Origin: a virus
IMG/VR virus record: IMGVR_UViG_3300047483_000537
Coordinates: 1 to 64,000 of that record
Length of the DNA stretch: 64,000 bases
Strand: one strand, 5' to 3'
Made by a program: the position numbers and the translations under genes. The first letter of the stretch is position 1. Each line of letters opens with the position of its first letter. This document shows, one piece after another, positions 149-10,413 of this stretch. The notes under the pieces are model-generated. The model was not told where the DNA came from and made no database searches. It was given only the letters and a program-made list of their open reading frames with translations.

Positions 149-805
149 ATGAATATAGATTCCATAAGTAGTCTAATTTCTAGAATAGAAACGGACTTTG
201 GTTCCGAAAGTAAAATTTACGTAAAGCAAGATCGTGGAGAACCAGAATTAACTCTGAACTTACCAGAAAGTGAAAACTTTATAGGAACTATATATCCTAT
301 AGACATGCTTCATCCAGATGCATTCAAAAACATAACTCAAGCACCCAGCAACTACCTAGACAATAGACCTATTATTGTATATTCCAAAGGGTCACAGTTA
401 TATGATTTTTCAATACCACTGGAGTTTCAATTAAATACTCCGTACACTGGTAGACCCTTTATTCATACTAAATGGGATTGCTTTACTTTACTAAAAGATT
501 TCTATCAAAAAGAGCTCGGTATATCTATGCCAGATGTAAGCTATTTTGATGAGTGGTGGTCTAAAGGCAAAGACTTTTACATGGAAACCAGCGGCGTTGC
601 TGGATTTTATCCTACACTATCACTTAAAAAATACGATATTATTGCAATGCGAGTTAATTCGCATGTGTTTAATCATGCTGCAATTTATTTAGGTGAGAAC
701 AAAATCTTACACCACATGGGTGGAAAGTTTAGCTGTATCGAAGAAATAAGGCCTGCATACTTAAACATGCTATTTGGATACTTTAGACACAAAGATTTGG
801 TATAA
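149..805 (+). CDS. NlpC/P60 (C40) peptidase, lambda gpK-like tail assembly protein
   Basis: YTGRPF..WDCFTLLKDFY and NHAAIYLGENKILHH motifs (catalytic Cys/His); N-terminal JAB-like part lacks HSH. Confidence 0.75.
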   Translation: MNIDSISSLISRIETDFGSESKIYVKQDRGEPELTLNLPESENFIGTIYPIDMLHPDAFKNITQAPSNYLDNRPIIVYSKGSQLYDFSIPLEFQLNTPYTGRPFIHTKWDCFTLLKDFYQKELGISMPDVSYFDEWWSKGKDFYMETSGVAGFYPTLSLKKYDIIAMRVNSHVFNHAAIYLGENKILHHMGGKFSCIEEIRPAYLNMLFGYFRHKDLV

Positions 806-810
806 GTATT

Positions 811-2124
811 ATGGCTAAAACATTCTTTTCTGGTAAACACACAGACAATAATTTTTATACTGCTATATACTCAGGTACTAATGGTGCTGGCACAGAAGAC
901 TTACTTGCTAATCCATTAAACAGAATCAATGACGTACTATTCCATAGCAGTTTCTCCTATCTAAAATCAAACGTATCTTTTAGTGGTTCAATAAATCTAC
1001 CTAGTAGAGCCCCCACTTTTGTTAGTGGTAAAAAGAAAGGCCGAACCGTAGAAGTTCCTTCTTATGGTACTACAACATACCAAATCACATCAACAGATTA
1101 CACCAGTTCTGGGTTTCCGCCAATAGTGATACTTGTAGATACAACCAATAATGTAACTATATCCGGCACTGCACTAGTACAACAACAAAATGGTTCTACA
1201 GTTAGACAATTAACTGTTAGAGCAGAAGCAAGTGGAATATATGTTCAAGAATTTTACTTCGCCTATGGTTCTACTCTACCAGCCAAAACTTTTAATTACA
1301 AAGTTTATATATTAAAAGACCTTGCTGAAAAAACAGACGTAGGCAAACAACTATATATAAATGGTTCAAAGTTAACTGTTGCTGAAGGAAAGTTTAACAC
1401 AGATTTAGCTTATGTAAACTTAAAATCTGGTGCAGCAGCGGGCGGTACAACAACAAGCTATACTGAAACCACAAACCAATATTATGAGACAAGATTTGCT
1501 TTACGCAGATATTTAAAATATAGGCCAACTCAACCAGGTGGTGCAGTTACAGAAGTATCTTGGGATTCTTATATAAAATTTAATGGAAATATTGAAGGTG
1601 TATATGAATTAGTGCCAGGAGAAATTACCAGTTGGTATAATCCTGTAGACGGGTATACATATAAACGAGGTGATTTTGTAGAAACTTTGCTAGACTACAA
1701 TCACACCTGGAGAATGTATGCTTTAAACTCTAAGTCACAGTGGGTACTGATCAAAGAGACTATCCACGATAAAACTGTACTAGAAGCACTAGCAGATAGC
1801 GGTAGAGCAGCAATTCCTTATGGACCCTCAGCCGGATACTATCAAATGACTTCAAGTACTGGCAAATTTTTAGCAGTAGGAACTGTGGCCTCAAACTATA
1901 GCGGTAGTTATGTGCAGGCTTATAAAATTTATAGAAGTATGCCATATACACAAACAACTGGCAGAACAGGCGCGGCTTTTGTTAACGGAATAACTGTTAA
2001 CGTAGAGTCTGTGCCAGATAACACTTCTGCTGGCCTATCCTGGAACTTTGACGGGGTAAAAAACTCGTATGGAGAAGCAGCGGCTTTTCCAACAAATACG
2101 GTAATTGGAGTCAATTTACTATGA
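811..2124 (+). CDS. Putative tail/virion-associated beta-rich protein
   Basis: 437 aa, S/T/G/Y-rich, follows gpK-like gene. Confidence 0.45.
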   Translation: MAKTFFSGKHTDNNFYTAIYSGTNGAGTEDLLANPLNRINDVLFHSSFSYLKSNVSFSGSINLPSRAPTFVSGKKKGRTVEVPSYGTTTYQITSTDYTSSGFPPIVILVDTTNNVTISGTALVQQQNGSTVRQLTVRAEASGIYVQEFYFAYGSTLPAKTFNYKVYILKDLAEKTDVGKQLYINGSKLTVAEGKFNTDLAYVNLKSGAAAGGTTTSYTETTNQYYETRFALRRYLKYRPTQPGGAVTEVSWDSYIKFNGNIEGVYELVPGEITSWYNPVDGYTYKRGDFVETLLDYNHTWRMYALNSKSQWVLIKETIHDKTVLEALADSGRAAIPYGPSAGYYQMTSSTGKFLAVGTVASNYSGSYVQAYKIYRSMPYTQTTGRTGAAFVNGITVNVESVPDNTSAGLSWNFDGVKNSYGEAAAFPTNTVIGVNLL

Positions 2125-2669
2125 GTTTTGTATCTTCTCCAAATAGATTCGTTATCAGAGACGCTAACTCTAATGTTAAGTTTGATACCGATGAGCCACA
2201 CCCTATTGTGTATGCCAGAACTCAGGGTTCGATTACTATTACTGCGCAACCAACAGCTACCACATTTACTTTTCCAACTGGAGAATCAAGTACTGGTACG
2301 GAAACCAGATACAACAGTGCTCCTATAATATCTAGTACTAATATTTATACGGCCCCTCCAGGCGTTGCTTTAGATTTTTGTATATCTTCAATTAGACTTA
2401 CTTCTTGTAATGTTACAGGAGCGGATGGAAGTTATTACTACTTTAAATTACCTTTAAATGTATGGCATTCAGCAAATGGCAGTGTTGTTGTAGACCAGTC
2501 AATAACACAGACAGGTAAGATACAAAGAGCTTCAGTAGCTACAATATATACTGTTGGAAACACCATACAGTTTTATTTTAAACGTAATGGATTTAATGAT
2601 GATGTTAATTTATTACATACGTACGTTTTTGATTACAACGTTCTTAGTTGTAAAATAAAACAAACCTAA
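2121..2669 (+). CDS. Putative minor tail protein
   Basis: N-terminal FVIRDANSNVKFDT motif typical of phage tail-associated proteins; ATGA overlap. Confidence 0.4.
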   Translation: MSFVSSPNRFVIRDANSNVKFDTDEPHPIVYARTQGSITITAQPTATTFTFPTGESSTGTETRYNSAPIISSTNIYTAPPGVALDFCISSIRLTSCNVTGADGSYYYFKLPLNVWHSANGSVVVDQSITQTGKIQRASVATIYTVGNTIQFYFKRNGFNDDVNLLHTYVFDYNVLSCKIKQT

Positions 2670-2684
2670 TTACTAGGAACATAA

Positions 2685-2990
2685 ATGATTCAAATAACTA
2701 AAATAGAGAATGATTTTATCAATCAGTATACTATTGCTACAGTAAACGTATACGAAACAACTTTAGGTGTACAGCGTCTTAAAGATACTTTTATTATTAC
2801 ATTAACAGGTATTTACGATATCAGTGACCCACAACTGTTAGATTTAATATATGCTAGACTACACAACATTGGCTACGAAGTTGTAGTACAAACTAGTGCT
2901 CCGGTTACACCAACCACACCATTAGATAGCTCTATTCAAGATAGTTTAGATGCAGCAGCTGCAGAAGCTTCTGACCAAGGAACCGTATAA
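2685..2990 (+). CDS. Hypothetical protein (possible tail-fibre accessory)
   Basis: ORF with AGGA RBS in operon. Confidence 0.6.
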   Translation: MIQITKIENDFINQYTIATVNVYETTLGVQRLKDTFIITLTGIYDISDPQLLDLIYARLHNIGYEVVVQTSAPVTPTTPLDSSIQDSLDAAAAEASDQGTV

Positions 2991-2992
2991 TA

Positions 2993-3922
2993 ATGAAAAC
3001 GTACTTATTGCCATGTAGAAACGATTATAACAGTTTTTGGCATCCAATATGCAGTATGTATGGTGGAAATATACTAGACAGGACTAATACGTTATCTTTT
3101 GGTAACTTTAAGTACAAAACCTTAACTGCAATCCCAGAGATGAAACCGATGCCATATAGTTTTGCAGAACTAGCAGACATGCGCGGAGAACATTTGGGTG
3201 CACTGGCACAAAGCAAAAATTGCAGAATTAATTTAATGTGGAGTGGGGGAATAGACAGTACTGTAGCGGCAGTATCTTTTATGAAATCAAATTTAGCTAA
3301 AAAACACTTAGTTATCTTATTAAATAAAAATTCTATTGGCGAATATCCCCTATTTTTTAATGAGTTTATTAAAGACAAAGTAAAGTACGAGATAGTAGAT
3401 TCACCCAAGAATTTTATAAAATACGAAGATATTAATATAACTGGCGAGATAGGTGATCAACTATTTGGCAGTGCTATGTTTACTACAGCACACAGAGCTG
3501 AAAAACTATTCTCTGCTCCAGAAGCGTTCTTTTCAAAAGAGTTCTTGAATGTTATGGAACCACAGATAGTACATTCGCCATATGAGCTAAAACAAGTAAA
3601 AGATTACTTATGGTGGATGAATTTTTCTTTGAAATATCAAAACGTACAGTTAAGAATATACCCTAGTGTATTTATGCCGTATGGAGGAATTACTCACTTT
3701 TTTGATACTGAAGAATTTCAGCTATGGTCTATGAATAATCCCGACAATAAAATAAAAGATACTATGGCTAGCTATAAATGGCCAGCAAAAGACTACATAT
3801 TTGAATATACCCAAGATTCAGAATACAGAGACTTTAAGCTAAAAGTTGGTAGTTTAAAAATAGGCCCTATAAAATGTGCTATTGACGAAAACTTTAAGTA
3901 TGAGGTTTGCTATGTTAACTAA
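2993..3922 (+). CDS. PP-loop ATPase, asparagine-synthetase C-terminal-like
   Basis: LMWSGGIDST and ITGEIGDQLFGS motifs; no glutaminase domain. Confidence 0.7.
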   Translation: MKTYLLPCRNDYNSFWHPICSMYGGNILDRTNTLSFGNFKYKTLTAIPEMKPMPYSFAELADMRGEHLGALAQSKNCRINLMWSGGIDSTVAAVSFMKSNLAKKHLVILLNKNSIGEYPLFFNEFIKDKVKYEIVDSPKNFIKYEDINITGEIGDQLFGSAMFTTAHRAEKLFSAPEAFFSKEFLNVMEPQIVHSPYELKQVKDYLWWMNFSLKYQNVQLRIYPSVFMPYGGITHFFDTEEFQLWSMNNPDNKIKDTMASYKWPAKDYIFEYTQDSEYRDFKLKVGSLKIGPIKCAIDENFKYEVCYVN

Positions 3923-5051
3923 TTTAAATGAATTTTTATTATCTGCTAATTCTGACAACAGGCCCAGCAATGAAACTATATTAAGTAATATAAATCTACT
4001 AAGTGCAGAAGATTCAGAATATGCTGAAAAACTTACTCGTGAGTTAACTAATCTCTGTATAGTTAGACCATTGATAGTTAAATCTATTAAAATGGCTAAA
4101 ACTTTGGCTTGGCGAACTTACATAGATGATAATAATGTAAGCAAGACTAACAGTACAATGGCCAACGTAATAAAACTATTAGATAAGTCTGAAATAAATT
4201 TATGGACACTGGAGCTTTATGAAGAAGGTTCTCTAAATGTCCGCAATTTTGTACACAGAGTTAATGCCTTATCTGGATATAATAAAGTACCATATTTACA
4301 TATTCTATTAAAATCTTTAAATAAAAAGATTAATAGCACTAAAAAACTAAAAACCAAACAGGATGTAAAAAACTTATTTGACAATCCTGAGTTAGTACCA
4401 CAACTAGAAACTTGGATTGCTGCCGATGAAGTAAAAAGATATTCTGGCGAAACAGTAACTAATCCAAATATATACTCTTGGGTAGTTAAACAGTTTCCTT
4501 TAGATACACAAGCTATACAGTCTGCAGAAATTGGCTATGATTTAGGTGGTGGCTTTGCTACGCCCGGAATAAGTATACTGTTTAATAAACCAATGGTTTC
4601 ATTAGACGTAATTGACCCTAGCAATAATAGCGATGTAATACTAAGTGTGCCTGAACTTACAACATTAGCAGAGTATAGGGATTTACTAGCGCAACAACCA
4701 TACATCAGGTTCGATGTATTTGCTGACGACTTTCCAGACAATTATAATTCATATTTTATAACAAGTTTTGGTTTTGCCACTTCAACGGTTAGCTATACAG
4801 GTAACGAAACTGTAGCGGGAGCTGCCTGGGTAAATACTACTTATAATTCTATGAAACGTTTGGCTAATTTGATAGCAAAAAACAAAGATGTATACTTCTT
4901 GCTATATGGACGCCCAACAAACAGAATACACAGAAATAAAGTAATAGCAATGCGCTTTAATAACAGAGTAATGCAATCTGTAGAAATATACGAAGATAAC
5001 TATAGTACCAAAAACGATCATAGCTTTGGTATAACCCATGTGTTATTTTAA
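3912..5051 (+). CDS. Hypothetical protein with SAM-methyltransferase-like C-terminal domain
   Basis: IGYDLGGG motif I-like followed by VSLDV acidic strand. Confidence 0.45.
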   Translation: MLTNLNEFLLSANSDNRPSNETILSNINLLSAEDSEYAEKLTRELTNLCIVRPLIVKSIKMAKTLAWRTYIDDNNVSKTNSTMANVIKLLDKSEINLWTLELYEEGSLNVRNFVHRVNALSGYNKVPYLHILLKSLNKKINSTKKLKTKQDVKNLFDNPELVPQLETWIAADEVKRYSGETVTNPNIYSWVVKQFPLDTQAIQSAEIGYDLGGGFATPGISILFNKPMVSLDVIDPSNNSDVILSVPELTTLAEYRDLLAQQPYIRFDVFADDFPDNYNSYFITSFGFATSTVSYTGNETVAGAAWVNTTYNSMKRLANLIAKNKDVYFLLYGRPTNRIHRNKVIAMRFNNRVMQSVEIYEDNYSTKNDHSFGITHVLF

Positions 5052-5059
5052 GGATTAAT

Positions 5060-5674
5060 ATGTTATTTTGTTCATTTTTTAATTCCGAAAAATCATCCAT
5101 TGTAGAATCAACTGACACAGACCTGTATCAATATAAAGCATATATTGGACCACACAGTATATCTACTAATCCAAAGTCTAGTTACTGGTATATTAACGAT
5201 GCCGTAGTCGGGTGTTTAACAGGCAATTACACTACCATTGAATCCGAAAAGTTATGTGTAGAAATTATTGGATATACTCCTGAAGATAGAACTTCTAGTT
5301 ATCACAGGTATACAGATTTACCGTATATTAATGGGTGCAGTTCAAAACAACTAATACCGCCTAATAGATTAGGTGATCCAACATGGCAGATGTTGTATAT
5401 ACCTGAAAATACTTCGGAACAAGCTCATCATATTCATGCTACTACAAGAGTTGTATACGTGGCTAAAGGTTTTGGATTCTCTCATGTTGGTAATAGTGAT
5501 AAGGTCACTACTACAGCACTGTATCCAGGACAAGTAATTATCCTAGATAAAATGGTTCCACATCATTTTAGTACTGAGAACGATAGTTTAATAGTTATAC
5601 CCTTACACGTATTTAGCTCTATTGGCGGCGCTGAACATAATCATCCTATGTTTAATGGCACTCATAGAGTGTAA
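5060..5674 (+). CDS. Cupin-domain protein
   Basis: QAHHIH..RVVYVAKGFG ... PGQVIILDKMVPHHF cupin motifs. Confidence 0.75.
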   Translation: MLFCSFFNSEKSSIVESTDTDLYQYKAYIGPHSISTNPKSSYWYINDAVVGCLTGNYTTIESEKLCVEIIGYTPEDRTSSYHRYTDLPYINGCSSKQLIPPNRLGDPTWQMLYIPENTSEQAHHIHATTRVVYVAKGFGFSHVGNSDKVTTTALYPGQVIILDKMVPHHFSTENDSLIVIPLHVFSSIGGAEHNHPMFNGTHRV

Positions 5675-5698: not shown

Positions 5699-5727
5699 TT
5701 GTTGTTTTAGTCAAAAGTCTGTATAAT
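5699..5727 (+). promoter_or_regulatory. Sigma70-type promoter
   Basis: (AC)TTGTTG-N17-TATAAT. Confidence 0.7.
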
Positions 5728-5781
5728 TAATGTTTTAGCGGCAAGAACAACAGTTCACCGACTAGTTCTAGAAAAATGAAC

Positions 5782-5810
5782 TTGTTCTTGCTGTCTATTT
5801 TTGATATAAT
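5782..5810 (+). promoter_or_regulatory. Sigma70-type promoter for the Y-RNA/Ro60 unit
   Basis: (AC)TTGTTC-N17-TATAAT. Confidence 0.75.
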
Positions 5811-5812
5811 AT

Positions 5813-6010
5813 ATACTTAAATTAAAGAGCTTAGTGTAGTGATTAGATTTCAGGTACTTCATAACTAAAGTACTCGTTAAATTCGTTAAATTCGCAACAT
5901 TCAGCAGGTCTTCGTTGCTCCTGCCTAAGTTTAAGGTAAGCGTTCTTTGATAAGTAAACGCTTCCAGCCCTGAGCTAGAGTGTTCTCTCTAGGTTCTTTA
6001 ATTTAGGTAT
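5813..6010 (+). ncRNA. Y-RNA-like element 1 within a 22-bp stem
   Basis: 5813-5834 pairs with 5989-6010 (3 G-U); inner AGTGAT..CAGGTACTTC ... CTGAGCTAGAGTGTTCT resembles the other elements. Confidence 0.55.
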
Positions 6011-6136
6011 AGTGAAAGAAACAGTTACTTCAATTGATAATGACGTGGTCGGTGGTTCGAGTCCACCCCAAGGCGCAAGCCAAAGTAGCTCAGTTGGTAG
6101 AGCACGAAAATCTCTGTTTCGCCTAGTTCTTACTTA
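6004..6136 (+). ncRNA. YrlA-like Y RNA (element 2) with permuted tRNA-like domain
   Basis: AGTGAAAG-GAAACAG/CTGTTTC stem; T-arm GGTGG-TTCGAGT-CCACC, GGC-GCAA-GCC, then D-arm TAGCTCAGTTGGTAGAGC; directly upstream of Ro60. Confidence 0.85.
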
Positions 6137-6151
6137 TTAAAAAGGAATCAA

Positions 6152-7462
6152 ATGTCTTCGATCAATCGCGTTGTGCGTAACCCTGTTTTCAATTCTGTTG
6201 GTACGCAAGTATCGCAAATTAGTGCAGAACGCCAGCTAAAGCGCGTAACCATGGCAGCAATGTTGTGGGAAAACCAGTTCTATATGGACGGCAAAACTCA
6301 CGCTGAGTTGGTCAAAGACCTTGTAGCTAAAGTCGCTCCTGAAAAGGTATCGGCTCTGGCTGAGGAAGCTCGTACTAAGTTTAAACTTCGTCACATTCCT
6401 CTGTTGCTTGCCCGCGAGTTAGCTCGAAACGGAAAACTGCAAGCACAAACCCTAACCAATGTTATTCAGCGTCCAGACGAAATGTCTGAATTTTTGAGTA
6501 TCTATTGGAAGGAAGGCAAAACTGCTGTCTCAAACCAAGTTAAAAAAGGCTTAGCGGCTTGTTTTAATAAGTTTTCAGAATACCAGCTTGCCAAATGGAA
6601 TAAGAATTCATCCGCAATTCGTTTGCGCGATGTAATGTTTATCTCCCACCCTAAACCGCAAAATGCCGAGCAAACAGCGTTGTTTCAACGCATTGCGGCT
6701 GATACACTTGAGACTCCTGACACATGGGAAACTCAATTATCTAGCGGCGCAGATAAGTGTGGTACGTTCTCCAGACTAATGTTGGAGAAAAAGCTAGGCG
6801 CTCTAGCTTTCTTGCGTAATCTGCGTAATATGCGCGACAGTGGTGTAGCGGATTCCCTTATCCGCAGTTATGCACAAACTGTTGACGTTAGTCGTGTCCT
6901 GCCTTTCCGCTATATTGCGGCGGCACGTATTGTTCCACAATACGAGGATATGCTAGAACAAATGATGTTCCGTAGCCTTGCTCAACATCAAAAAATTCCT
7001 GGAAAGACTGTTCTGTTGATCGACGTAAGTGGCTCAATGTTCGGTACCAGAATTTCCTCAAAATCAGATCTAGATCGCTTCGATGCGGCAGCTGCACTTG
7101 CTATGCTGTGCCGTGAAGTTTGTGAGGAAGTCGAGATTTATAGCTTTAGCAATAATGCTGTGCGCGTTGCACCTCGTCGTGGATTTGCTCTCCGCGAAGC
7201 TATTTCAAGCTCTCAAAGTCACGGTGGAACTGCTCTTGGCAATTCCATGAAGACTGTAGACAGCAACAGTTTGTACGACCGTTGTATTGTGTTTACTGAC
7301 GAGCAAAGCTATGATCGCCCAGGTGCTCCTCGTAACAAAGGCTACATTATCAATGTGGCTAGCTACGAAAATGGGGTTAACCACCAAGCATGGACTGAGA
7401 TTAATGGTTTCTCAGAGTCTGTAATTGATTACATCCAAGCGTTGGAGCAGGAAGCTGCTTAA
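6152..7462 (+). CDS. rsr: Ro60/Rsr-like TROVE-domain RNA-binding protein with vWA domain
   Basis: QRPDEM, FSEYQLAKW, LRDVMFISHPKP, TWETQLS, LRNLRN, SRVLPFRY; MIDAS DVSGSM and FTDEQ. Confidence 0.93.
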   Translation: MSSINRVVRNPVFNSVGTQVSQISAERQLKRVTMAAMLWENQFYMDGKTHAELVKDLVAKVAPEKVSALAEEARTKFKLRHIPLLLARELARNGKLQAQTLTNVIQRPDEMSEFLSIYWKEGKTAVSNQVKKGLAACFNKFSEYQLAKWNKNSSAIRLRDVMFISHPKPQNAEQTALFQRIAADTLETPDTWETQLSSGADKCGTFSRLMLEKKLGALAFLRNLRNMRDSGVADSLIRSYAQTVDVSRVLPFRYIAAARIVPQYEDMLEQMMFRSLAQHQKIPGKTVLLIDVSGSMFGTRISSKSDLDRFDAAAALAMLCREVCEEVEIYSFSNNAVRVAPRRGFALREAISSSQSHGGTALGNSMKTVDSNSLYDRCIVFTDEQSYDRPGAPRNKGYIINVASYENGVNHQAWTEINGFSESVIDYIQALEQEAA

Positions 7463-7524
7463 ATAACTATCTCACGACCCAAGCCTGTAGCCAGTCAGGT
7501 GTTAGAAAAGTGAGGCTCTAAGCT

Positions 7525-7623
7525 AAGGGCTTAGATTTGTTGATGGTGATAGAAACAGTTACTTCTTCTTATGGTGAAACTAACGAGCTGTTTCGACTTA
7601 TTCCTCAGCAAATCTAAGCCCTT
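7525..7623 (+). ncRNA. Minimal Y-RNA-like element 3
   Basis: GGTGATAGAAACAGTTACTTC...CTGTTTCGACTTATTCC closed by 19-bp stem AAGGGCTTAGATTTGTTGA/TCAGCAAATCTAAGCCCTT. Confidence 0.75.
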
Positions 7624-7691
7624 TGCGCTTTTATCGGTTACTTCTAGACTTTTAATCTAACCAAATCGCCGATAATACTTATTCAAGGGCT
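7617..7691 (+). ncRNA. Minimal Y-RNA-like element 4 with Lys(UUU)-like anticodon hairpin
   Basis: TTATCGG-TTACTTC...CCGATAA-TACTTATTC, compensatory stem changes; TAGA-CTTTTAA-TCTA inside. Confidence 0.7.
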
Positions 7692-7700
7692 GCTACTTAT

Positions 7701-7827
7701 TGCTTTGGCGATAGTTACAGTTTCATCAAAAGTTCGATTCTTTTATTACGCATCGCGTTATTAGCCTAGTGGTAAGGCACCGGAACTGATAATCCGGCAA
7801 AAACTCTGTAATGACTTATTCCAAGCA
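7701..7827 (+). ncRNA. YrlA-like Y RNA (element 5) with T, acceptor-like, D and anticodon arms in permuted order
   Basis: GGCGATAG-TTACAG/CTGTAA-TGACTTATTCC; AAAAG-TTCGATT-CTTTT; TAGCCTAGTGGTAAGGC; CCGGA-ACTGATAA-TCCGG. Confidence 0.8.
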
Positions 7828-7830
7828 TTT

Positions 7831-7904
7831 ATGTCCCTGGTGTAATGGCAGCACCCTGGTCTCCAAAACCAGCAGTCACGGTTCGAGTCCGTGGGGGCGT
7901 GCCA
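7831..7904 (+). tRNA. tRNA-Trp (CCA)
   Basis: CTGGT-CTCCAAA-ACCAG, cloverleaf, CCA end. Confidence 0.92.
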
Positions 7905-8210: not shown

Positions 8211-8214
8211 AAAC

Positions 8215-8306
8215 CTGCCTTAGGTCCGTGCCGTTCCGGTTTAGAGCGTCCGTAACCCAATCGGTGGCCACGACAGTGCCACGCTGTATATCGTAAGCAG
8301 CAACCA
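8215..8306 (+). ncRNA. Unassigned structured RNA between tRNA-Asp and tRNA-Asn
   Basis: GC-rich spacer; CTGC(C)TTA/TAAGCAG, GTC(C)GTG/CACGAC, CCGGTT/AATCGG helices. Confidence 0.45.
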
Positions 8307-8307
8307 T

Positions 8308-8554: not shown

Positions 8555-9022
8555 ATGCACGAATTTAATTTACAAGAAGTCAAGGATTTTATTTCAGCAC
8601 AATCACCAGAAACTAAAATTTATCTTGGTGCTGATTCGGAGCGTGTAAAAGTTCATGGTGTATGGCACGCTGACTATACTCTAGCAGTTGTTGTTCATAT
8701 TGACGGCAATCATGGTTGCAAGATTTTTGGGTCGGTTAGTCGTGAACGCGACTTTGATCAAAAAGTATCAAAACCAGCATTGCGGCTAATGCAAGAAGTT
8801 TATAAAGTAAGTGATCTATTTCACGAATTATCGGATGTTTTACAAGATCGTCACGTTGAAGTTCACCTAGATATTAACCCTAACCTAATGTACGGCTCTA
8901 GCTGTGTTGTACAACAGGCTATCGGGTATATCAAAGGTACTTGCAATGTAGATGCTCAAGTAAAACCAAATGCTTTTGCAGCAAGCTATGCTGCTGATCG
9001 TTTAAAATTTATATTGGCTTAA
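8555..9022 (+). CDS. RNase H-like YkuK-family protein
   Basis: IYLGADS, RLMQEV..S, EVHLDIN, KP.AFAASYAAD pattern. Confidence 0.8.
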   Translation: MHEFNLQEVKDFISAQSPETKIYLGADSERVKVHGVWHADYTLAVVVHIDGNHGCKIFGSVSRERDFDQKVSKPALRLMQEVYKVSDLFHELSDVLQDRHVEVHLDINPNLMYGSSCVVQQAIGYIKGTCNVDAQVKPNAFAASYAADRLKFILA

Positions 9023-9382: not shown

Positions 9383-9490
9383 TATTATAACACATTACTC
9401 GCCACTTAATGCATAAATGCGGAGTCGTCGCGCGCATACCTTCCGCGGGTAATCAGGAGCACCTGACATGGGTAGTGTGTTATAATATGG
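9380..9490 (+). ncRNA. Unassigned RNA: 21-bp stem closing a GC-rich multibranch core
   Basis: 9380-9400 pairs with 9470-9490 (2 G-U); inner TCAGG/CCTGA, GCAT/ATGC hairpins. Confidence 0.55.
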
Positions 9491-9810
9491 TTGTATGAAG
9501 CAAAAAGAAAAGAGTTCTGGACGGCGGTTCGAATCCGCCCAGCTCCACCATAAGCACGTGTCTTAGATGAAAGAAACCTCTGAGGGCTCTAATGGGGCGT
9601 GCTTTTGATGGGGCTGCATTTGGTTTCGACAGGGTTACAAGTAAACGAGTGGACAACTAGGTAATGCAGAAGCCTTAGGATTGGGGTTGTTCCCAGTCGC
9701 AGAAGCACAACAAAAATAAACGCAAACGATCAAGTTTACGCTTTAGCAGCTTAATTGCCGCTTAGGGTTTTGTCAGTTTTTCCTCGTAACAGAATAAAGC
9801 TGACCCTAAT
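9491..9810 (+). ncRNA. ssrA: Circularly permuted (two-piece) tmRNA
   Basis: 3' TLD half GGACGGCGGTTCGAATCCGCCCAGCTCCACCA (ends 9550) precedes 5' half GGGGCTG..GGTTTCGAC (9610); G3-U70; tag 9722-9754 ANDQVYALAA*; outer ends approximate. Confidence 0.92.
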
Positions 9811-9825
9811 TTATTTAAGAAACTT

Positions 9826-10413
9826 ATGAAGAAAACAAACATTCTAGACCCTAAACTGTTTCAAACAGAAAAGTATTCAAATAACTTTTCTAAACCGGTA
9901 GCACAAGTTCATGAGTTTTATTTAAGTGGTCAAATTGAAGATGCTGATGAATACATTGAATGGTTTGATGTTATCAGGAACGCTTCTAGCACAGATACTA
10001 TTCGTATTTATATTAACAGTCCAGGTGGCGACCTATTTACCACACTACAGTTTTTGCGAGTTATGTCGGATACCGAAGCTACCATTGTTACCAGTGTTGA
10101 AGGCGCTTGCATGAGTGCTGCTACTATGATCTTTTTACATGGTCATATGCAAGAAGTAACACCACATAGCTTATTTATGTTTCATGACTATTCGTCAGGC
10201 ACATTTGGCAAAGGTGGCGAACAGTACGATCAAATTCAGTTTGAGCGTGGCTGGTCTCGAAAGTTTATGAAAGAAGTCTACAAAGACTTTTTAACTGAAG
10301 CTGAGATTGAGTCGATGATGCACAACAAAGACATTTGGATGGATTCAGATGAAGTTGTTAAGCGTCTTACTAACCTAATGGAAAAGCGCAAAACTGAAAA
10401 TCCAGAAGAATAA
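9826..10413 (+). CDS. clpP: ClpP-like protease subunit
   Basis: IYINSPGG, GACMSAAT (catalytic Ser), SLFMFHD (His), DIWMD. Confidence 0.85.
   Translation: MKKTNILDPKLFQTEKYSNNFSKPVAQVHEFYLSGQIEDADEYIEWFDVIRNASSTDTIRIYINSPGGDLFTTLQFLRVMSDTEATIVTSVEGACMSAATMIFLHGHMQEVTPHSLFMFHDYSSGTFGKGGEQYDQIQFERGWSRKFMKEVYKDFLTEAEIESMMHNKDIWMDSDEVVKRLTNLMEKRKTENPEE

What the first reader, a model, noticed from the sequence alone, without database searches (positions are those of the whole stretch)
5813..7827. Phage Ro60 flanked by five modular Y-RNA-like elements with one scaffold and different cargo
Seen: five elements (5813-6010, 6004-6136, 7525-7623, 7617-7691, 7701-7827) share 5'-G-YG(A/C)W-stem-TTACTTC-like ... 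stem-RMCTWRTT-C-3' (element 1 is the loosest match). Stems covary (GAAACAG/CTGTTTC, TTATCGG/CCGATAA, TTACAG/CTGTAA). Cargo differs: permuted T-acceptor-D domain (2); full permuted tRNA including an anticodon arm (5); bare anticodon hairpin (4); short loop (3); multi-hairpin (1). Established: bacterial Ro60 (Rsr) binds adjacent YrlA RNAs with tRNA-like domains, and some phages carry such pairs. Inference: one protein with an interchangeable set of RNA adaptors. An array this size with minimal members is not something I recognise as described.
Basis: partly seen in the sequence, partly recalled or inferred. Interest (0 to 1): 0.92.

Follow-up and report, generated by a model that had tools for sequence, protein, structure and literature searches.

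The report
Phage Ro60 with modular Y-RNA array
A T5-like phage carries a Ro60 RNA-binding protein gene flanked by four to five small RNAs that share one conserved docking stem and carry different tips (tRNA look-alikes, a bare anticodon-loop copy, a short loop); this is a larger, more modular form of the known bacterial Y-RNA system.

Summary
ORF 6152-7462 is a Ro60 homologue: TROVE plus vWA domains, and its best solved relative is Thermus phage phiLo Ro60. Elements 2-5 share a covarying scaffold. It runs closing helix, 5' loop UGGYGAUAG-like, 7-bp helix, UUACUUC, cargo, helix, (G)ACUUAUUC(C), closing helix.

A covariance model built only from short-cargo members recovers elements 2 and 5. It gave 253 hits in 1.1 Mb of Ro60 loci, all on the Ro60 strand. 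Element 1 is a real RNA with a covarying closing stem but lacks the 3' half of the scaffold.

The 5' motif and UUAC match the published YrlA motifs GNCGAAN0-1G and YUAY. These are therefore divergent YrlA/YrlB-type Y RNAs, although Rfam's YrlA model does not reach its threshold.

What looks new: arrays of three to six members are common in this Ro60 clade, in cultured phages and in bacterial genome assemblies. Cargo is swapped, gained and lost between close relatives. Element 5 is a permuted tRNA mimic that keeps an anticodon arm. Element 4 is an anticodon stem-loop alone, and its "anticodon" differs between relatives. I found no description of these features in the literature searched.

Ro60 binding, transcripts and function were not tested.

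The parts
5802..5810 (+). Extended -10-like box TGATATAAT, directly upstream of element 1. The element-1 start ACTTAAATTAAA follows it in 12 relatives.
   Evidence: Read directly from the sequence and conserved in the upstream alignments. The simple promoter scan did not list it because there is no -35 match. Inferred promoter.
5818..6005 (+). Element 1: a large multi-hairpin RNA closed by a ~17-bp terminal stem. It has the 5' half of the scaffold (UAGUGAUUAG, stem UUCAGG, GUACUUC). Its 3' side is a separate hairpin rather than the CUUAUUC strand.
   Evidence: Closing stem 92.5% paired with 5 compensatory pairs in 11 loci; folds; not matched by model R1.
6002..6137 (+). Element 2: YrlA-type Y RNA. 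Scaffold plus V hairpin (loop AUUGAUAA), T arm (GGUGG/CCACC), closed acceptor-like stem and D arm (GCUC/GAGC).
   Evidence: R1 45.8 bits, E 1e-8, although not in the training set. Rfam YrlA 30.8 bits, E 4e-4, below the gathering score of 69. The scaffold is invariant while the cargo varies in 7 orthologues.
6152..7462 (+). Ro60 (Rsr) homologue, 436 aa: TROVE ring plus vWA domain with a DxSxS MIDAS motif.
   Evidence: Pfam TROVE 33.2 bits (cut-off 23) and vWA_Ro60 28.0 bits (cut-off 27.7). phmmer hit to Thermus phage phiLo Ro60 (9KOP/9L5Y), E 2.5e-22, over residues 33-432.
7471..7514 (+). It does not have the Y scaffold.
   Evidence: Inner hairpin: 3 of 4 pairs compensatory in 9 loci; loop UAG(C/U)CAG conserved.
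7525..7623 (+). Element 3: minimal, YrlB-like Y RNA. 19-bp closing stem, scaffold, and a short pyrimidine-rich loop UUACUUCUUCUUAUGG.
   Evidence: RNAfold z = -7.7. 26 pairs, 100% paired, 11 compensatory in 13 loci. R1 78.8 bits (this element was in the training set).
7617..7691 (+). Element 4: scaffold carrying only a 4-bp hairpin, UAGA-CUUUUAA-UCUA. Its 7-nt loop is identical to the anticodon loop of the phage's own tRNA-Lys(UUU). Its 5' closing strand (7617-7623) is shared with the 3' closing strand of element 3.
   Evidence: The loop positions corresponding to anticodon bases 33-35 vary (UUU, CUU, GCU, UGU) in orthologues that are otherwise 94% identical.
7700..7827 (+). Element 5: scaffold carrying a circularly permuted tRNA mimic. 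Order: T arm (AAAAG/CUUUU), 7-bp acceptor stem closed by the loop AUC, D arm (GCCU/AGGC), then an anticodon-like arm (CCGGA/UCCGG, 8-nt loop ACUGAUAA). The scaffold enters at the variable-loop position.
   Evidence: 35 pairs, 96.6% paired, 10 compensatory, every arm supported. R1 39.3 bits, not in the training set. Rfam tRNA 23.6 bits, below 29.
7831..7904 (+). tRNA-Trp, the first gene of the downstream tRNA/tmRNA array, 3 nt after element 5. It probably defines the 3' end of element 5 through RNase P cleavage (inferred).
   Evidence: ARAGORN and Rfam.

Best explanation
The region is a Ro60/Y-RNA locus of a T5-like phage. It probably forms one operon with the tRNA/tmRNA array. The protein is a Ro60 ring protein.

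Elements 2-5, and more loosely element 1, are Y RNAs of the YrlA/YrlB kind. Each carries the same roughly 45-nt docking module:
- a closing helix;
- a GG/CC pair;
- an asymmetric internal loop (5' YGAUAG, 3' GACUUAUU);
- a 7-bp helix;
- single-stranded UUACUUC.

By homology with the published YrlA motifs, this module is where Ro60 binds. The variable tip is the effector or mimic part:
- element 2: a YrlA-type tRNA elbow (T arm, closed acceptor stem, D arm);
- element 3: a short pyrimidine-rich loop;
- element 4: an anticodon stem-loop copy;
- element 5: a near-complete permuted tRNA.

The RNAs would be cut out of a polycistronic transcript, for example by RNase P at the adjacent tRNA-Trp. Once loaded on Ro60 they would tether or gate it towards different partners. 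By analogy with D. radiodurans and phage phiLo, those partners include host PNPase, and also tRNA-binding enzymes. The likely purpose is to handle structured or damaged RNA during infection.

Shown here: protein family, shared covarying structure, strict linkage to Ro60 in position and strand, and cargo modularity. Inferred: transcription, processing, Ro60 binding and partners.
For: Protein: Pfam TROVE and vWA_Ro60 above their cut-offs. PDB hit to phiLo Ro60, E 2.5e-22. That protein was shown to bind two upstream Y-like RNAs and to form a complex with host PNPase (PMC12135203).

Scaffold: covariation.

Model R1: trained on short-cargo members only, it finds the long-cargo elements 2 and 5. All 253 hits lie on the Ro60-coding strand and none on the other. 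This holds across 17 sources (window plus 16 loci), 4 cultured-phage loci, 64 further phage loci and 80 bacterial loci. In whole-genome scans the hits sit only beside Ro60 in phages Tabio, Mvi-JY20 and CcrColossus.

Homology to YrlA:
- The 5' loop reads GGCGAUAG, GGUGAUAG or AGUGAAAG, against the published GNCGAAN0-1G. A relative (L016) has the exact form GGCGAAUG.
- UUAC corresponds to the published YUAY that opens the V loop. The V stem-loop upstream of T is as published.
- Rfam YrlA aligns element 2 end to end at E 4e-4. It scores up to 52 bits on the corresponding RNAs of phage Tabio.
Against: - No element reaches Rfam's YrlA gathering score: 30.8 against 69.
- The 5' motif is a variant of GNCGAA. 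Element 4 (UGCGCUUU) is well off it.
- No expression or binding data could be obtained.
- Element 1 lacks the 3' half of the module.
- Elements 3 and 4 share 7 nt of closing-stem strand, so both full helices cannot form on one molecule.
- Ralstonia phage RsoM2USA has the closest cultured Ro60 (56% identity) but no model hit adjacent to the gene. Its nearest hit is about 5 kb away.
Confidence: 0.8

Rival explanations
1. The elements are processing or stability signals of the operon and not Ro60 ligands. On this view, tRNA-like and hairpin punctuation recruits RNase P, Z, E or III to release the Ro60 mRNA and the downstream tRNAs.
For: - They sit between a promoter-like box, the Ro60 ORF and a tRNA array. 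Element 5 ends 3 nt before tRNA-Trp.
- Element 3 has a 19-bp perfect duplex of the kind RNase III cuts.
- M. smegmatis YrlA is an RNase P substrate (Chen 2014).
Against: - Punctuation does not explain a conserved asymmetric internal loop and UUACUUC shared by all members. These motifs match the published YrlA motifs, of which GNCGAAN0-1G is the one assigned to Ro60 (Rsr) binding.
- It does not explain the strict co-occurrence with Ro60 in phages of unrelated hosts and in bacterial chromosomes.
- The many tRNA spacers in the same arrays lack the scaffold.
Confidence: 0.08
2. The scaffold is the binding site of another protein of the tRNA island, or it marks a small mobile tRNA-derived cassette that duplicates within tRNA arrays. 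Its link to Ro60 would then be only positional.
For: - Extra scaffold copies lie 1.1-1.5 kb away inside the tRNA array in seven relatives.
- In RsoM2USA the copies lie 5 and 30 kb from Ro60.
- Members are gained and lost quickly.
- The published origin model derives YrlA from tandem tRNAs.
Against: - In three complete cultured-phage genomes all hits lie in the gap next to Ro60.
- 59 of 64 further phage Ro60 loci carry at least one hit within 3 kb, always on the Ro60 strand.
- No other gene is consistently adjacent. The upstream and downstream genes differ between loci.
Confidence: 0.07
3. The similarity is a chance match or a low-complexity repeat.
For: TTACTTC alone occurs at the chance rate in the window.
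Against: - Model E-values range from 1e-8 to 1e-19.
- 253 hits on the Ro60 strand against 0 on the other.
- Compensatory changes occur in every helix.
Confidence: 0.01

Closest known systems
YrlA (Rfam RF02553; S. Typhimurium, M. smegmatis and 22 phages; Chen et al. 2014, PMC4201824; structure in Wang et al. 2018, bioRxiv 10.1101/312249)
   Same: - Encoded next to Ro60 on the same strand.
- A 5' GNCGAA-like motif, and a YUAY that opens a V stem-loop.
- T arm, closed acceptor-like stem and D arm.

Element 2 has all of these. The ACUU(A/G)U 3' strand is also shared with the Rfam consensus.
   Different: - The score is far below Rfam's threshold.
- The helix between module and cargo is a fixed 7 bp followed by UUACUUC.
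- The V hairpin carries an exact anticodon-loop sequence.
- Published YrlA 'lacks the anticodon loop', whereas element 5 has an anticodon-like arm and joins the module at the variable-loop position rather than through the anticodon stem.
YrlB (Salmonella, M. smegmatis) and D. radiodurans Yrn2: second, minimal Y RNAs
   Same: [quoted passage not shown] Element 3 fits this description.
   Different: No sequence homology was tested, because YrlB has no Rfam model hit here. This locus has four to five members rather than two, and one of them (element 4) carries an anticodon stem-loop copy.
Thermus phage phiLo Ro60 with Yrl1/Yrl2 (NAR 2025, PMC12135203)
   Same: It is the closest solved protein (E 2.5e-22). 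It is a phage Ro60 with Y-like RNAs upstream that have a stem-bulge-stem shape and a CGAA motif. Binding and a complex with host PNPase were shown experimentally.
   Different: phiLo has two RNAs, both upstream, and the passages I read mention no tRNA-like cargo. This locus has RNAs on both sides of the gene and diverse cargo.
D. radiodurans Yrn1
   Same: A Y RNA that can be drawn with a T arm and a potential 5-bp 'anticodon arm'.
   Different: In Yrn1 that arm lies between the T and D elements, its loop has 6 nt, and the D arm is incomplete. Element 5 has all four arms in tRNA order, and all four covary.
Phage tRNAs that evade or titrate anticodon nucleases (from my own knowledge: T4 against PrrC, T5 tRNA-Lys against PARIS). 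Hughes et al. 2020 suggested that YrlA might competitively inhibit an anticodon nuclease (PMC7790460).
   Same: The setting is the tRNA island of a T5-like phage. The displayed loops equal real anticodon loops and differ between relatives.
   Different: These are not tRNAs: the acceptor end is closed, or only a hairpin is present. No nuclease interaction has been tested.

Membership tests
Ro60 / Rsr (TROVE) protein | TROVE HEAT-repeat ring domain | tested here: met
   PF05731 scores 33.2 bits against a cut-off of 23. phmmer aligns residues 33-432 to phage phiLo Ro60, E 2.5e-22.
Ro60 / Rsr (TROVE) protein | C-terminal vWA domain with a MIDAS motif | tested here: met
   PF25045 vWA_Ro60 scores 28.0 bits against a cut-off of 27.7. 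A DVSGS (DxSxS) motif is read from the sequence at 7021-7035.
Ro60 / Rsr (TROVE) protein | Binds Y RNA | not testable with these tools
   Needs gel-shift or pull-down assays.
YrlA (Rfam RF02553) | Covariance-model score at or above the gathering score (69 bits) | tested here: not met
   Element 2 scores 30.8 bits, E 4e-4. The other elements have no hit, and none of the 16 relatives scanned has a hit at the gathering score.
YrlA (Rfam RF02553) | Encoded within 4 kb of Ro60 on the same strand (criterion of Chen 2014) | tested here: met
   All five elements lie within 370 nt of the ORF on the + strand. All 253 model hits are on the Ro60 strand.
YrlA (Rfam RF02553) | GNCGAAN0-1G motif near the 5' end | tested here: inconclusive
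   Near-matches only: GGCGAUAG (element 5), GGUGAUAG (element 3), AGUGAAAG (element 2), AGUGAUUAG (element 1), UGCGCUUU (element 4). A relative, L016, has the exact form GGCGAAUG.
YrlA (Rfam RF02553) | Conserved YUAY at the start of the V loop | tested here: met
   UUAC in elements 2-4, UUUC in element 5, GUAC in element 1. The position is invariant in the scaffold alignment.
YrlA (Rfam RF02553) | tRNA-like domain: T arm, closed acceptor-like stem, D arm | tested here: met
   Met for elements 2 and 5. Not present in elements 1, 3 and 4, which therefore fall outside YrlA proper.
YrlB-type minimal Y RNA | Long hairpin with the Ro-binding motif and a small pyrimidine-rich loop, encoded beside YrlA | tested here: met
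   Element 3 has a 19-bp closing stem, the scaffold and a UUACUUCUUCUU loop. This is a structural resemblance only, because the family has no sequence model.
tRNA (RF00005) | Contiguous cloverleaf with free acceptor ends and a score at or above 29 bits | tested here: not met
   Element 5 scores 23.6 bits and only over the D and anticodon arms. The order of arms is permuted and the acceptor stem is closed by a loop. ARAGORN does not call it.

The most novel reading that the evidence does not exclude
The array is a set of Ro60-docked tRNA and anticodon-loop decoys. The displayed loops are exact copies of the anticodon loops of ANN-decoding tRNAs (C-U-N-N-U-A-A: Lys, Ile, Thr, Asn, Ser, Arg).

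These loops change rapidly between near-identical phages. That could reflect tracking of host anticodon nucleases, or of other anticodon-loop readers such as the t6A machinery. Ro60, with PNPase, would hold, protect or dispose of the bait.

The two arrangements, anticodon arm before the T arm (element 2 type) and after the D arm (element 5), would also be living intermediates of the proposed origin of Y RNAs from tandem tRNA dimers.
Probability: 0.18. Interest if true: 0.85.

Novelty: new variant of a known kind. Interest (0 to 1): 0.62.

Why it matters
What bacterial and phage Ro60/Y-RNA particles do is still largely open. [quoted passage not shown]

This clade offers a natural experiment: one docking module with many tips, exchanged between close relatives. 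Some tips are exact anticodon-loop copies, and one is a near-complete tRNA mimic. That turns "what does the Y-RNA effector domain bind?" into a set of direct comparisons in one system.

It supplies a searchable model. That model already marks unannotated RNA arrays in cultured phages (Tabio, CcrColossus, Mvi-JY20) and in many bacterial genome assemblies.

It also gives sequence-level support to the tandem-tRNA origin model of Y RNAs. One piece of that support is a GCC(A) remnant after the 3' acceptor strand in relatives of element 5.

A phage Ro60 homologue has been reported to counter a defence system (Bas63 gp130, PMC11482910). The RNAs may therefore be part of a counter-defence device.

Tried and rejected
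- **Rfam at gathering score.** Neither the window nor 16 relatives gave a YrlA or Y_RNA hit. Only sub-threshold matches appeared.
- **The 7-mer alone.** TTACTTC is not enriched in the window.
- **Do the displayed anticodons fill gaps in the phage's tRNA set?** Rejected. The record also encodes tRNA-Lys(UUU), Arg(UCU) and Ser(GCU) at its other end, and relatives encode Ile(GAU).
- **Does an extended closing stem of element 2 sequester the Ro60 ribosome-binding site?** It pairs in the window, but the pairing is not kept in relatives such as L003 and L005, so I dropped the idea.
Model R1 has no hit there, and the consensus fold has little covariation. Undecided; not included.
- **Element 1 as a full scaffold member.** Not supported. 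Its 3' side is a separate hairpin, with a UUCG-type loop in relatives, that covaries by eye.
- **Scaffold pattern scan of the whole viral collection.** Not run. A pattern general enough to catch the family would give thousands of chance matches by my estimate.
- **Ralstonia phage RsoM2USA.** It has no adjacent hit.
Full report
**What is there**

The window is the first 64 kb of a 96.6-kb IMG/VR virus record. Its family-A DNA polymerase is 49% identical to those of T5-like Vibrio phages.

ORF 6152-7462 (+) hits Pfam TROVE and the Ro60-type vWA domain above their curated cut-offs. Its best solved relative is the Ro60 of Thermus phage phiLo, E 2.5e-22 over residues 33-432. The gene sits inside a tRNA island: tRNA-Trp starts at 7831, 14 further tRNAs follow or precede, and there is a permuted tmRNA at 9489-9754.

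**Checking the observation**

The five elements and the quoted stems are in the sequence as described. On their own, only element 3 (z = -7.7) and element 4 (z = -2.8) fold better than shuffles. The heptamer TTACTTC is not enriched in the window. The evidence therefore has to come from comparison with relatives.

Two scans of IMG/VR gave 80 loci with Ro60 at 47-96% identity. In the 16 closest, the same elements recur at the same positions on both sides of the gene.

- Element 3 orthologues keep all 26 proposed pairs in all 13 sequences, with compensatory changes at 11 pairs.
- An alignment mixing paralogues (elements 2, 3 and 4 types, plus members from loci with only 50-52% Ro60 identity) keeps 93.8% of cells paired in the two scaffold helices. 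Sliding the partner strand gives 35-46%. Twelve of the 13 pairs covary.
- Element 5 keeps 96.6% of 35 pairs. There are 10 compensatory pairs, spread over the scaffold helix and all four tRNA-like arms.
- The roughly 17-bp closing stem of element 1 is 92.5% paired with 5 compensatory pairs.

**An independent test with a covariance model**

I built model R1 from 14 short-cargo members only. In the window it finds elements 3 and 4, which were in the training set. It also finds, end to end, the long-cargo elements 2 (45.8 bits, E 1e-8) and 5 (39.3 bits, E 5e-7). It finds nothing else in the 64 kb at E ≤ 1 on either strand.

It does not find element 1. Inspection shows why. Element 1 has the 5' half of the scaffold (UAGUGAUUAG, a short helix, GUACUUC). 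Its 3' side is a separate hairpin next to the closing stem, not the CUUAUUC strand.

Over all searches R1 gave 54 + 7 + 113 + 79 = 253 hits in 1.1 Mb, searched on both strands. Every hit is on the Ro60-coding strand. A stricter regular-expression descriptor gave 127 hits on that strand and 3 on the other. In the complete genomes of phages Tabio (43 kb), Mvi-JY20 (108 kb) and CcrColossus (280 kb), the hits lie only in the gap beside Ro60.

**What the scaffold is**

The consensus runs in this order:

1. closing helix
2. a GG that pairs with the CC of UUCC
3. 5' loop YGAUAG
4. 7-bp helix
5. UUACUUC
6. cargo
7. 7-bp helix (3' strand)
8. (G)ACUUAUU
9. CC
10. closing helix

Chen et al. (2014) defined YrlA by several features. 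These are a GNCGAAN0-1G motif near the 5' end that they assign to Rsr binding, and a conserved YUAY that begins the V loop. Next come a less-conserved V stem-loop upstream of T, then the T arm, a closed acceptor-like stem and the D arm.

The phage scaffold matches piece by piece. GGCGAUAG, GGUGAUAG and AGUGAAAG correspond to GNCGAA(N)G, and relative L016 has the exact form GGCGAAUG. UUAC corresponds to YUAY. The 3' ACUUAU corresponds to the ACUUGU of the Rfam consensus.

Rfam's YrlA model aligns element 2 over its full length, but at 30.8 bits against a gathering score of 69. It never reaches the threshold in any relative. It reaches 52 and 42 bits on the corresponding RNAs of phages Tabio and CcrColossus.

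My conclusion is that these RNAs work like, and are very probably homologous to, YrlA/YrlB-type Y RNAs. By Rfam's own criterion they are not members of RF02553.

**The cargo**

- **Element 2** is the canonical YrlA layout: V hairpin, T arm, closed acceptor stem, D arm.
- **Element 3** is a long hairpin with a pyrimidine-rich loop, as described for YrlB and Yrn2.
- **Element 4** carries only the V hairpin, UAGA-CUUUUAA-UCUA.
- **Element 5** has no V hairpin. It runs T arm, 7-bp acceptor stem closed by a 3-nt loop, D arm with a canonical AGUGGUAA loop, then a 5-bp arm with the loop ACUGAUAA. The scaffold therefore enters where a tRNA has its variable loop.

The published YrlA structure paper states that YrlA lacks the anticodon loop, so element 5 is a more complete mimic. 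In relatives, the 3' acceptor strand of element 5 is followed by GCC or GCCA. The same structure paper describes the origin of YrlA from a tandem tRNA dimer. On that model, the first tRNA would leave exactly this trace: its discriminator base plus encoded CCA. The phage's own tRNA genes do encode CCA.

**Anticodon-loop copies**

The V hairpins have 7-nt loops of the form C-U-N-N-U-A-A. Several equal the anticodon loops of the phage's own tRNAs:

| Loop | Found in | Matches |
|---|---|---|
| CUUUUAA | element 4 of the window | tRNA-Lys |
| (A)UUGAUAA | element 2 of the window | loop of a relative's tRNA-Ile(GAU) |
| (A)CUGAUAA | element 5 of the window | anticodon GAU; differs from that tRNA-Ile loop at position 32 (C for U) |
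| CUUGUAA | relatives | tRNA-Thr |
| CUGUUAA | relatives | tRNA-Asn |

In six element-4 orthologues that are 94% identical overall, the three loop columns read UUU, UCU, UGC, AGC, UUU and UUG. With the fixed U that follows, the triplets at the anticodon position are UUU, CUU, GCU, GCU, UUU and UGU. Across the wider set, 29 of 127 descriptor hits have such a first hairpin. Of these, 23 read NNU followed by AA.

Whether this variability is selection or mere tolerance cannot be decided here. From memory, U36-A37-A38 are the determinants of t6A formation. That is a lead, not a test.

**Modularity**

- Orthologous element 4 carries the anticodon-like hairpin in W, L001, L002, L004, L006 and L012. 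It carries an unrelated two-hairpin insert of about 50 nt in L003, L005, L007, L010, L011 and L017. The scaffold is kept in both groups.
- Element 5 is absent from L002, L007-L010, L012 and L017. Element 4 is absent from L008 and L009.
- A further member, with a T arm plus a GCUGGUGCAU hairpin, lies 1.1-1.5 kb downstream in seven relatives but not in the window.
- L014 has at least six members, and L016 has four upstream.
- Among 64 further phage loci, 59 have at least one R1 hit, 39 have at least two and 11 have at least three.
- Bacterial Ro60 loci also show up to four tandem hits. Most of these are genome assemblies of Acidobacteriota and Alphaproteobacteria.
- Phage Tabio has three R1 hits plus one further Rfam YrlA-like match in an unannotated 650-nt gap. 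CcrColossus has three R1 hits plus three YrlA-like matches in 1.3 kb.

**How it probably works**

An extended -10-like box (TGATATAAT, 5802-5810) is followed in all relatives by the conserved start of element 1. No convincing terminator separates the elements, the ORF and the tRNAs. Element 5 ends 3 nt before tRNA-Trp. I infer one precursor transcript that is cut by the tRNA-processing enzymes.

In D. radiodurans, the Y RNA tethers Rsr to PNPase (Chen 2013, cited). In phiLo, binding of two Y-like RNAs and a complex with host PNPase were shown. By analogy, the shared module would dock each RNA on Ro60, and the tips would select partners. Element 3 is the best candidate for a PNPase tether. The tRNA-like tips would engage tRNA-binding proteins.

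Two reports suggest an anti-defence or RNA-damage role. The Salmonella rsr-yrlBA-rtcBA operon is switched on by cleaved tRNAs, and its authors proposed that YrlA might competitively inhibit an anticodon nuclease. A Ro60-like protein of phage Bas63, encoded just upstream of its tRNA genes, counters the ppl defence system. None of this was tested on the present sequences.

**Unresolved points**

- The 3' closing strand of element 3 (AAGCCCUU, 7616-7623) is also the 5' closing strand of element 4. All three partner strands covary together in relatives. Either the two RNAs are alternative products, or element 3 uses only its upper 12 bp.
- A further conserved hairpin (7471-7514, loop UAGCCAGU) lies between the stop codon and element 3. 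It lacks the scaffold.

**Novelty**

Y RNAs beside phage Ro60 genes are known, as are pairs made of one tRNA-like and one minimal Y RNA. Three full-text searches found no description of the following:

- arrays of four to six members;
- cargo exchange on a fixed scaffold;
- a Y RNA that keeps an anticodon arm;
- a Y RNA whose only cargo is an anticodon stem-loop.

The library does not cover most subscription journals, and the 2020 Annual Review on bacterial Ro60 could not be read. A prior description cannot be excluded.

Noticed in passing
window 7471-7514: A conserved structured element between the Ro60 stop codon and element 3: CUCAC...GUGAG enclosing a hairpin with the conserved loop UAG(C/U)CAG(U). 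The stem covaries in 9 loci. It has no Y scaffold and its function is unknown.
   Followed up: partly
window 5700-5810: Two -10-like boxes (TGTATAAT near 5722-5729, TGATATAAT at 5802-5810) bracket a long conserved hairpin (about 5738-5797, GCAAGAACAA/UUGUUCUUGC). The hairpin covaries in relatives by eye and is followed by a U run. This could be a small RNA or an attenuator ahead of the Y-RNA/Ro60 operon.
   Followed up: partly
window 7525-7532, 7616-7623, 7685-7691: One strand (AAGCCCUU) can pair with either of two flanking AAGGGCU(U) copies, closing either element 3 or element 4. An upstream CUCUAAGC (7506-7514) can also pair with GGCUUAGA of element 3. This chain of mutually exclusive helices is conserved in relatives.
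   Followed up: partly
window 8211-8307: The spacer between tRNA-Asp and tRNA-Asn is about 81% conserved in five relatives and folds into several hairpins. The scaffold model has no match there and covariation is weak.
   Followed up: partly
L020 (Xanthomonas phage Tabio) 1789-2379; L022 (Caulobacter phage CcrColossus) 1260-2456: Unannotated gaps upstream of the Ro60 genes of two cultured phages hold four and about six tandem Y-RNA-like elements. These are a mix of scaffold-model hits and sub-threshold Rfam YrlA hits.
   Followed up: partly
L089-L168 (bacterial genome contigs), e.g. L115 1773-2265 and L117 1778-2268: Ro60 loci in bacterial genome assemblies (Acidobacteriota, Hyphomonadaceae, Bradyrhizobium and others) carry up to four tandem scaffold hits upstream of the gene, all on its strand.
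   Followed up: partly
L088 14007-14098 (same virus record, 96.0 kb): A 92-nt tRNA called Ile(UAU) has a long extra arm between the anticodon arm and the T arm. That is unusual for tRNA-Ile, and it is the same position at which the Y scaffold enters element 5.
   Followed up: no
window 8555-9022, 9489-9754, 9826-10413: An RNase H-like ORF (PF04308), a permuted tmRNA (115.6 bits, tag ANDQVYALAA) and a ClpP-like protease lie in the same tRNA island as the Ro60 locus.
   Followed up: no
window 149-5674: In this phage, tail-like and cupin/other ORFs are inserted between tRNA-Met (4-78) and the Y-RNA promoter region. In relatives, tRNA-Met directly precedes that region.
   Followed up: no
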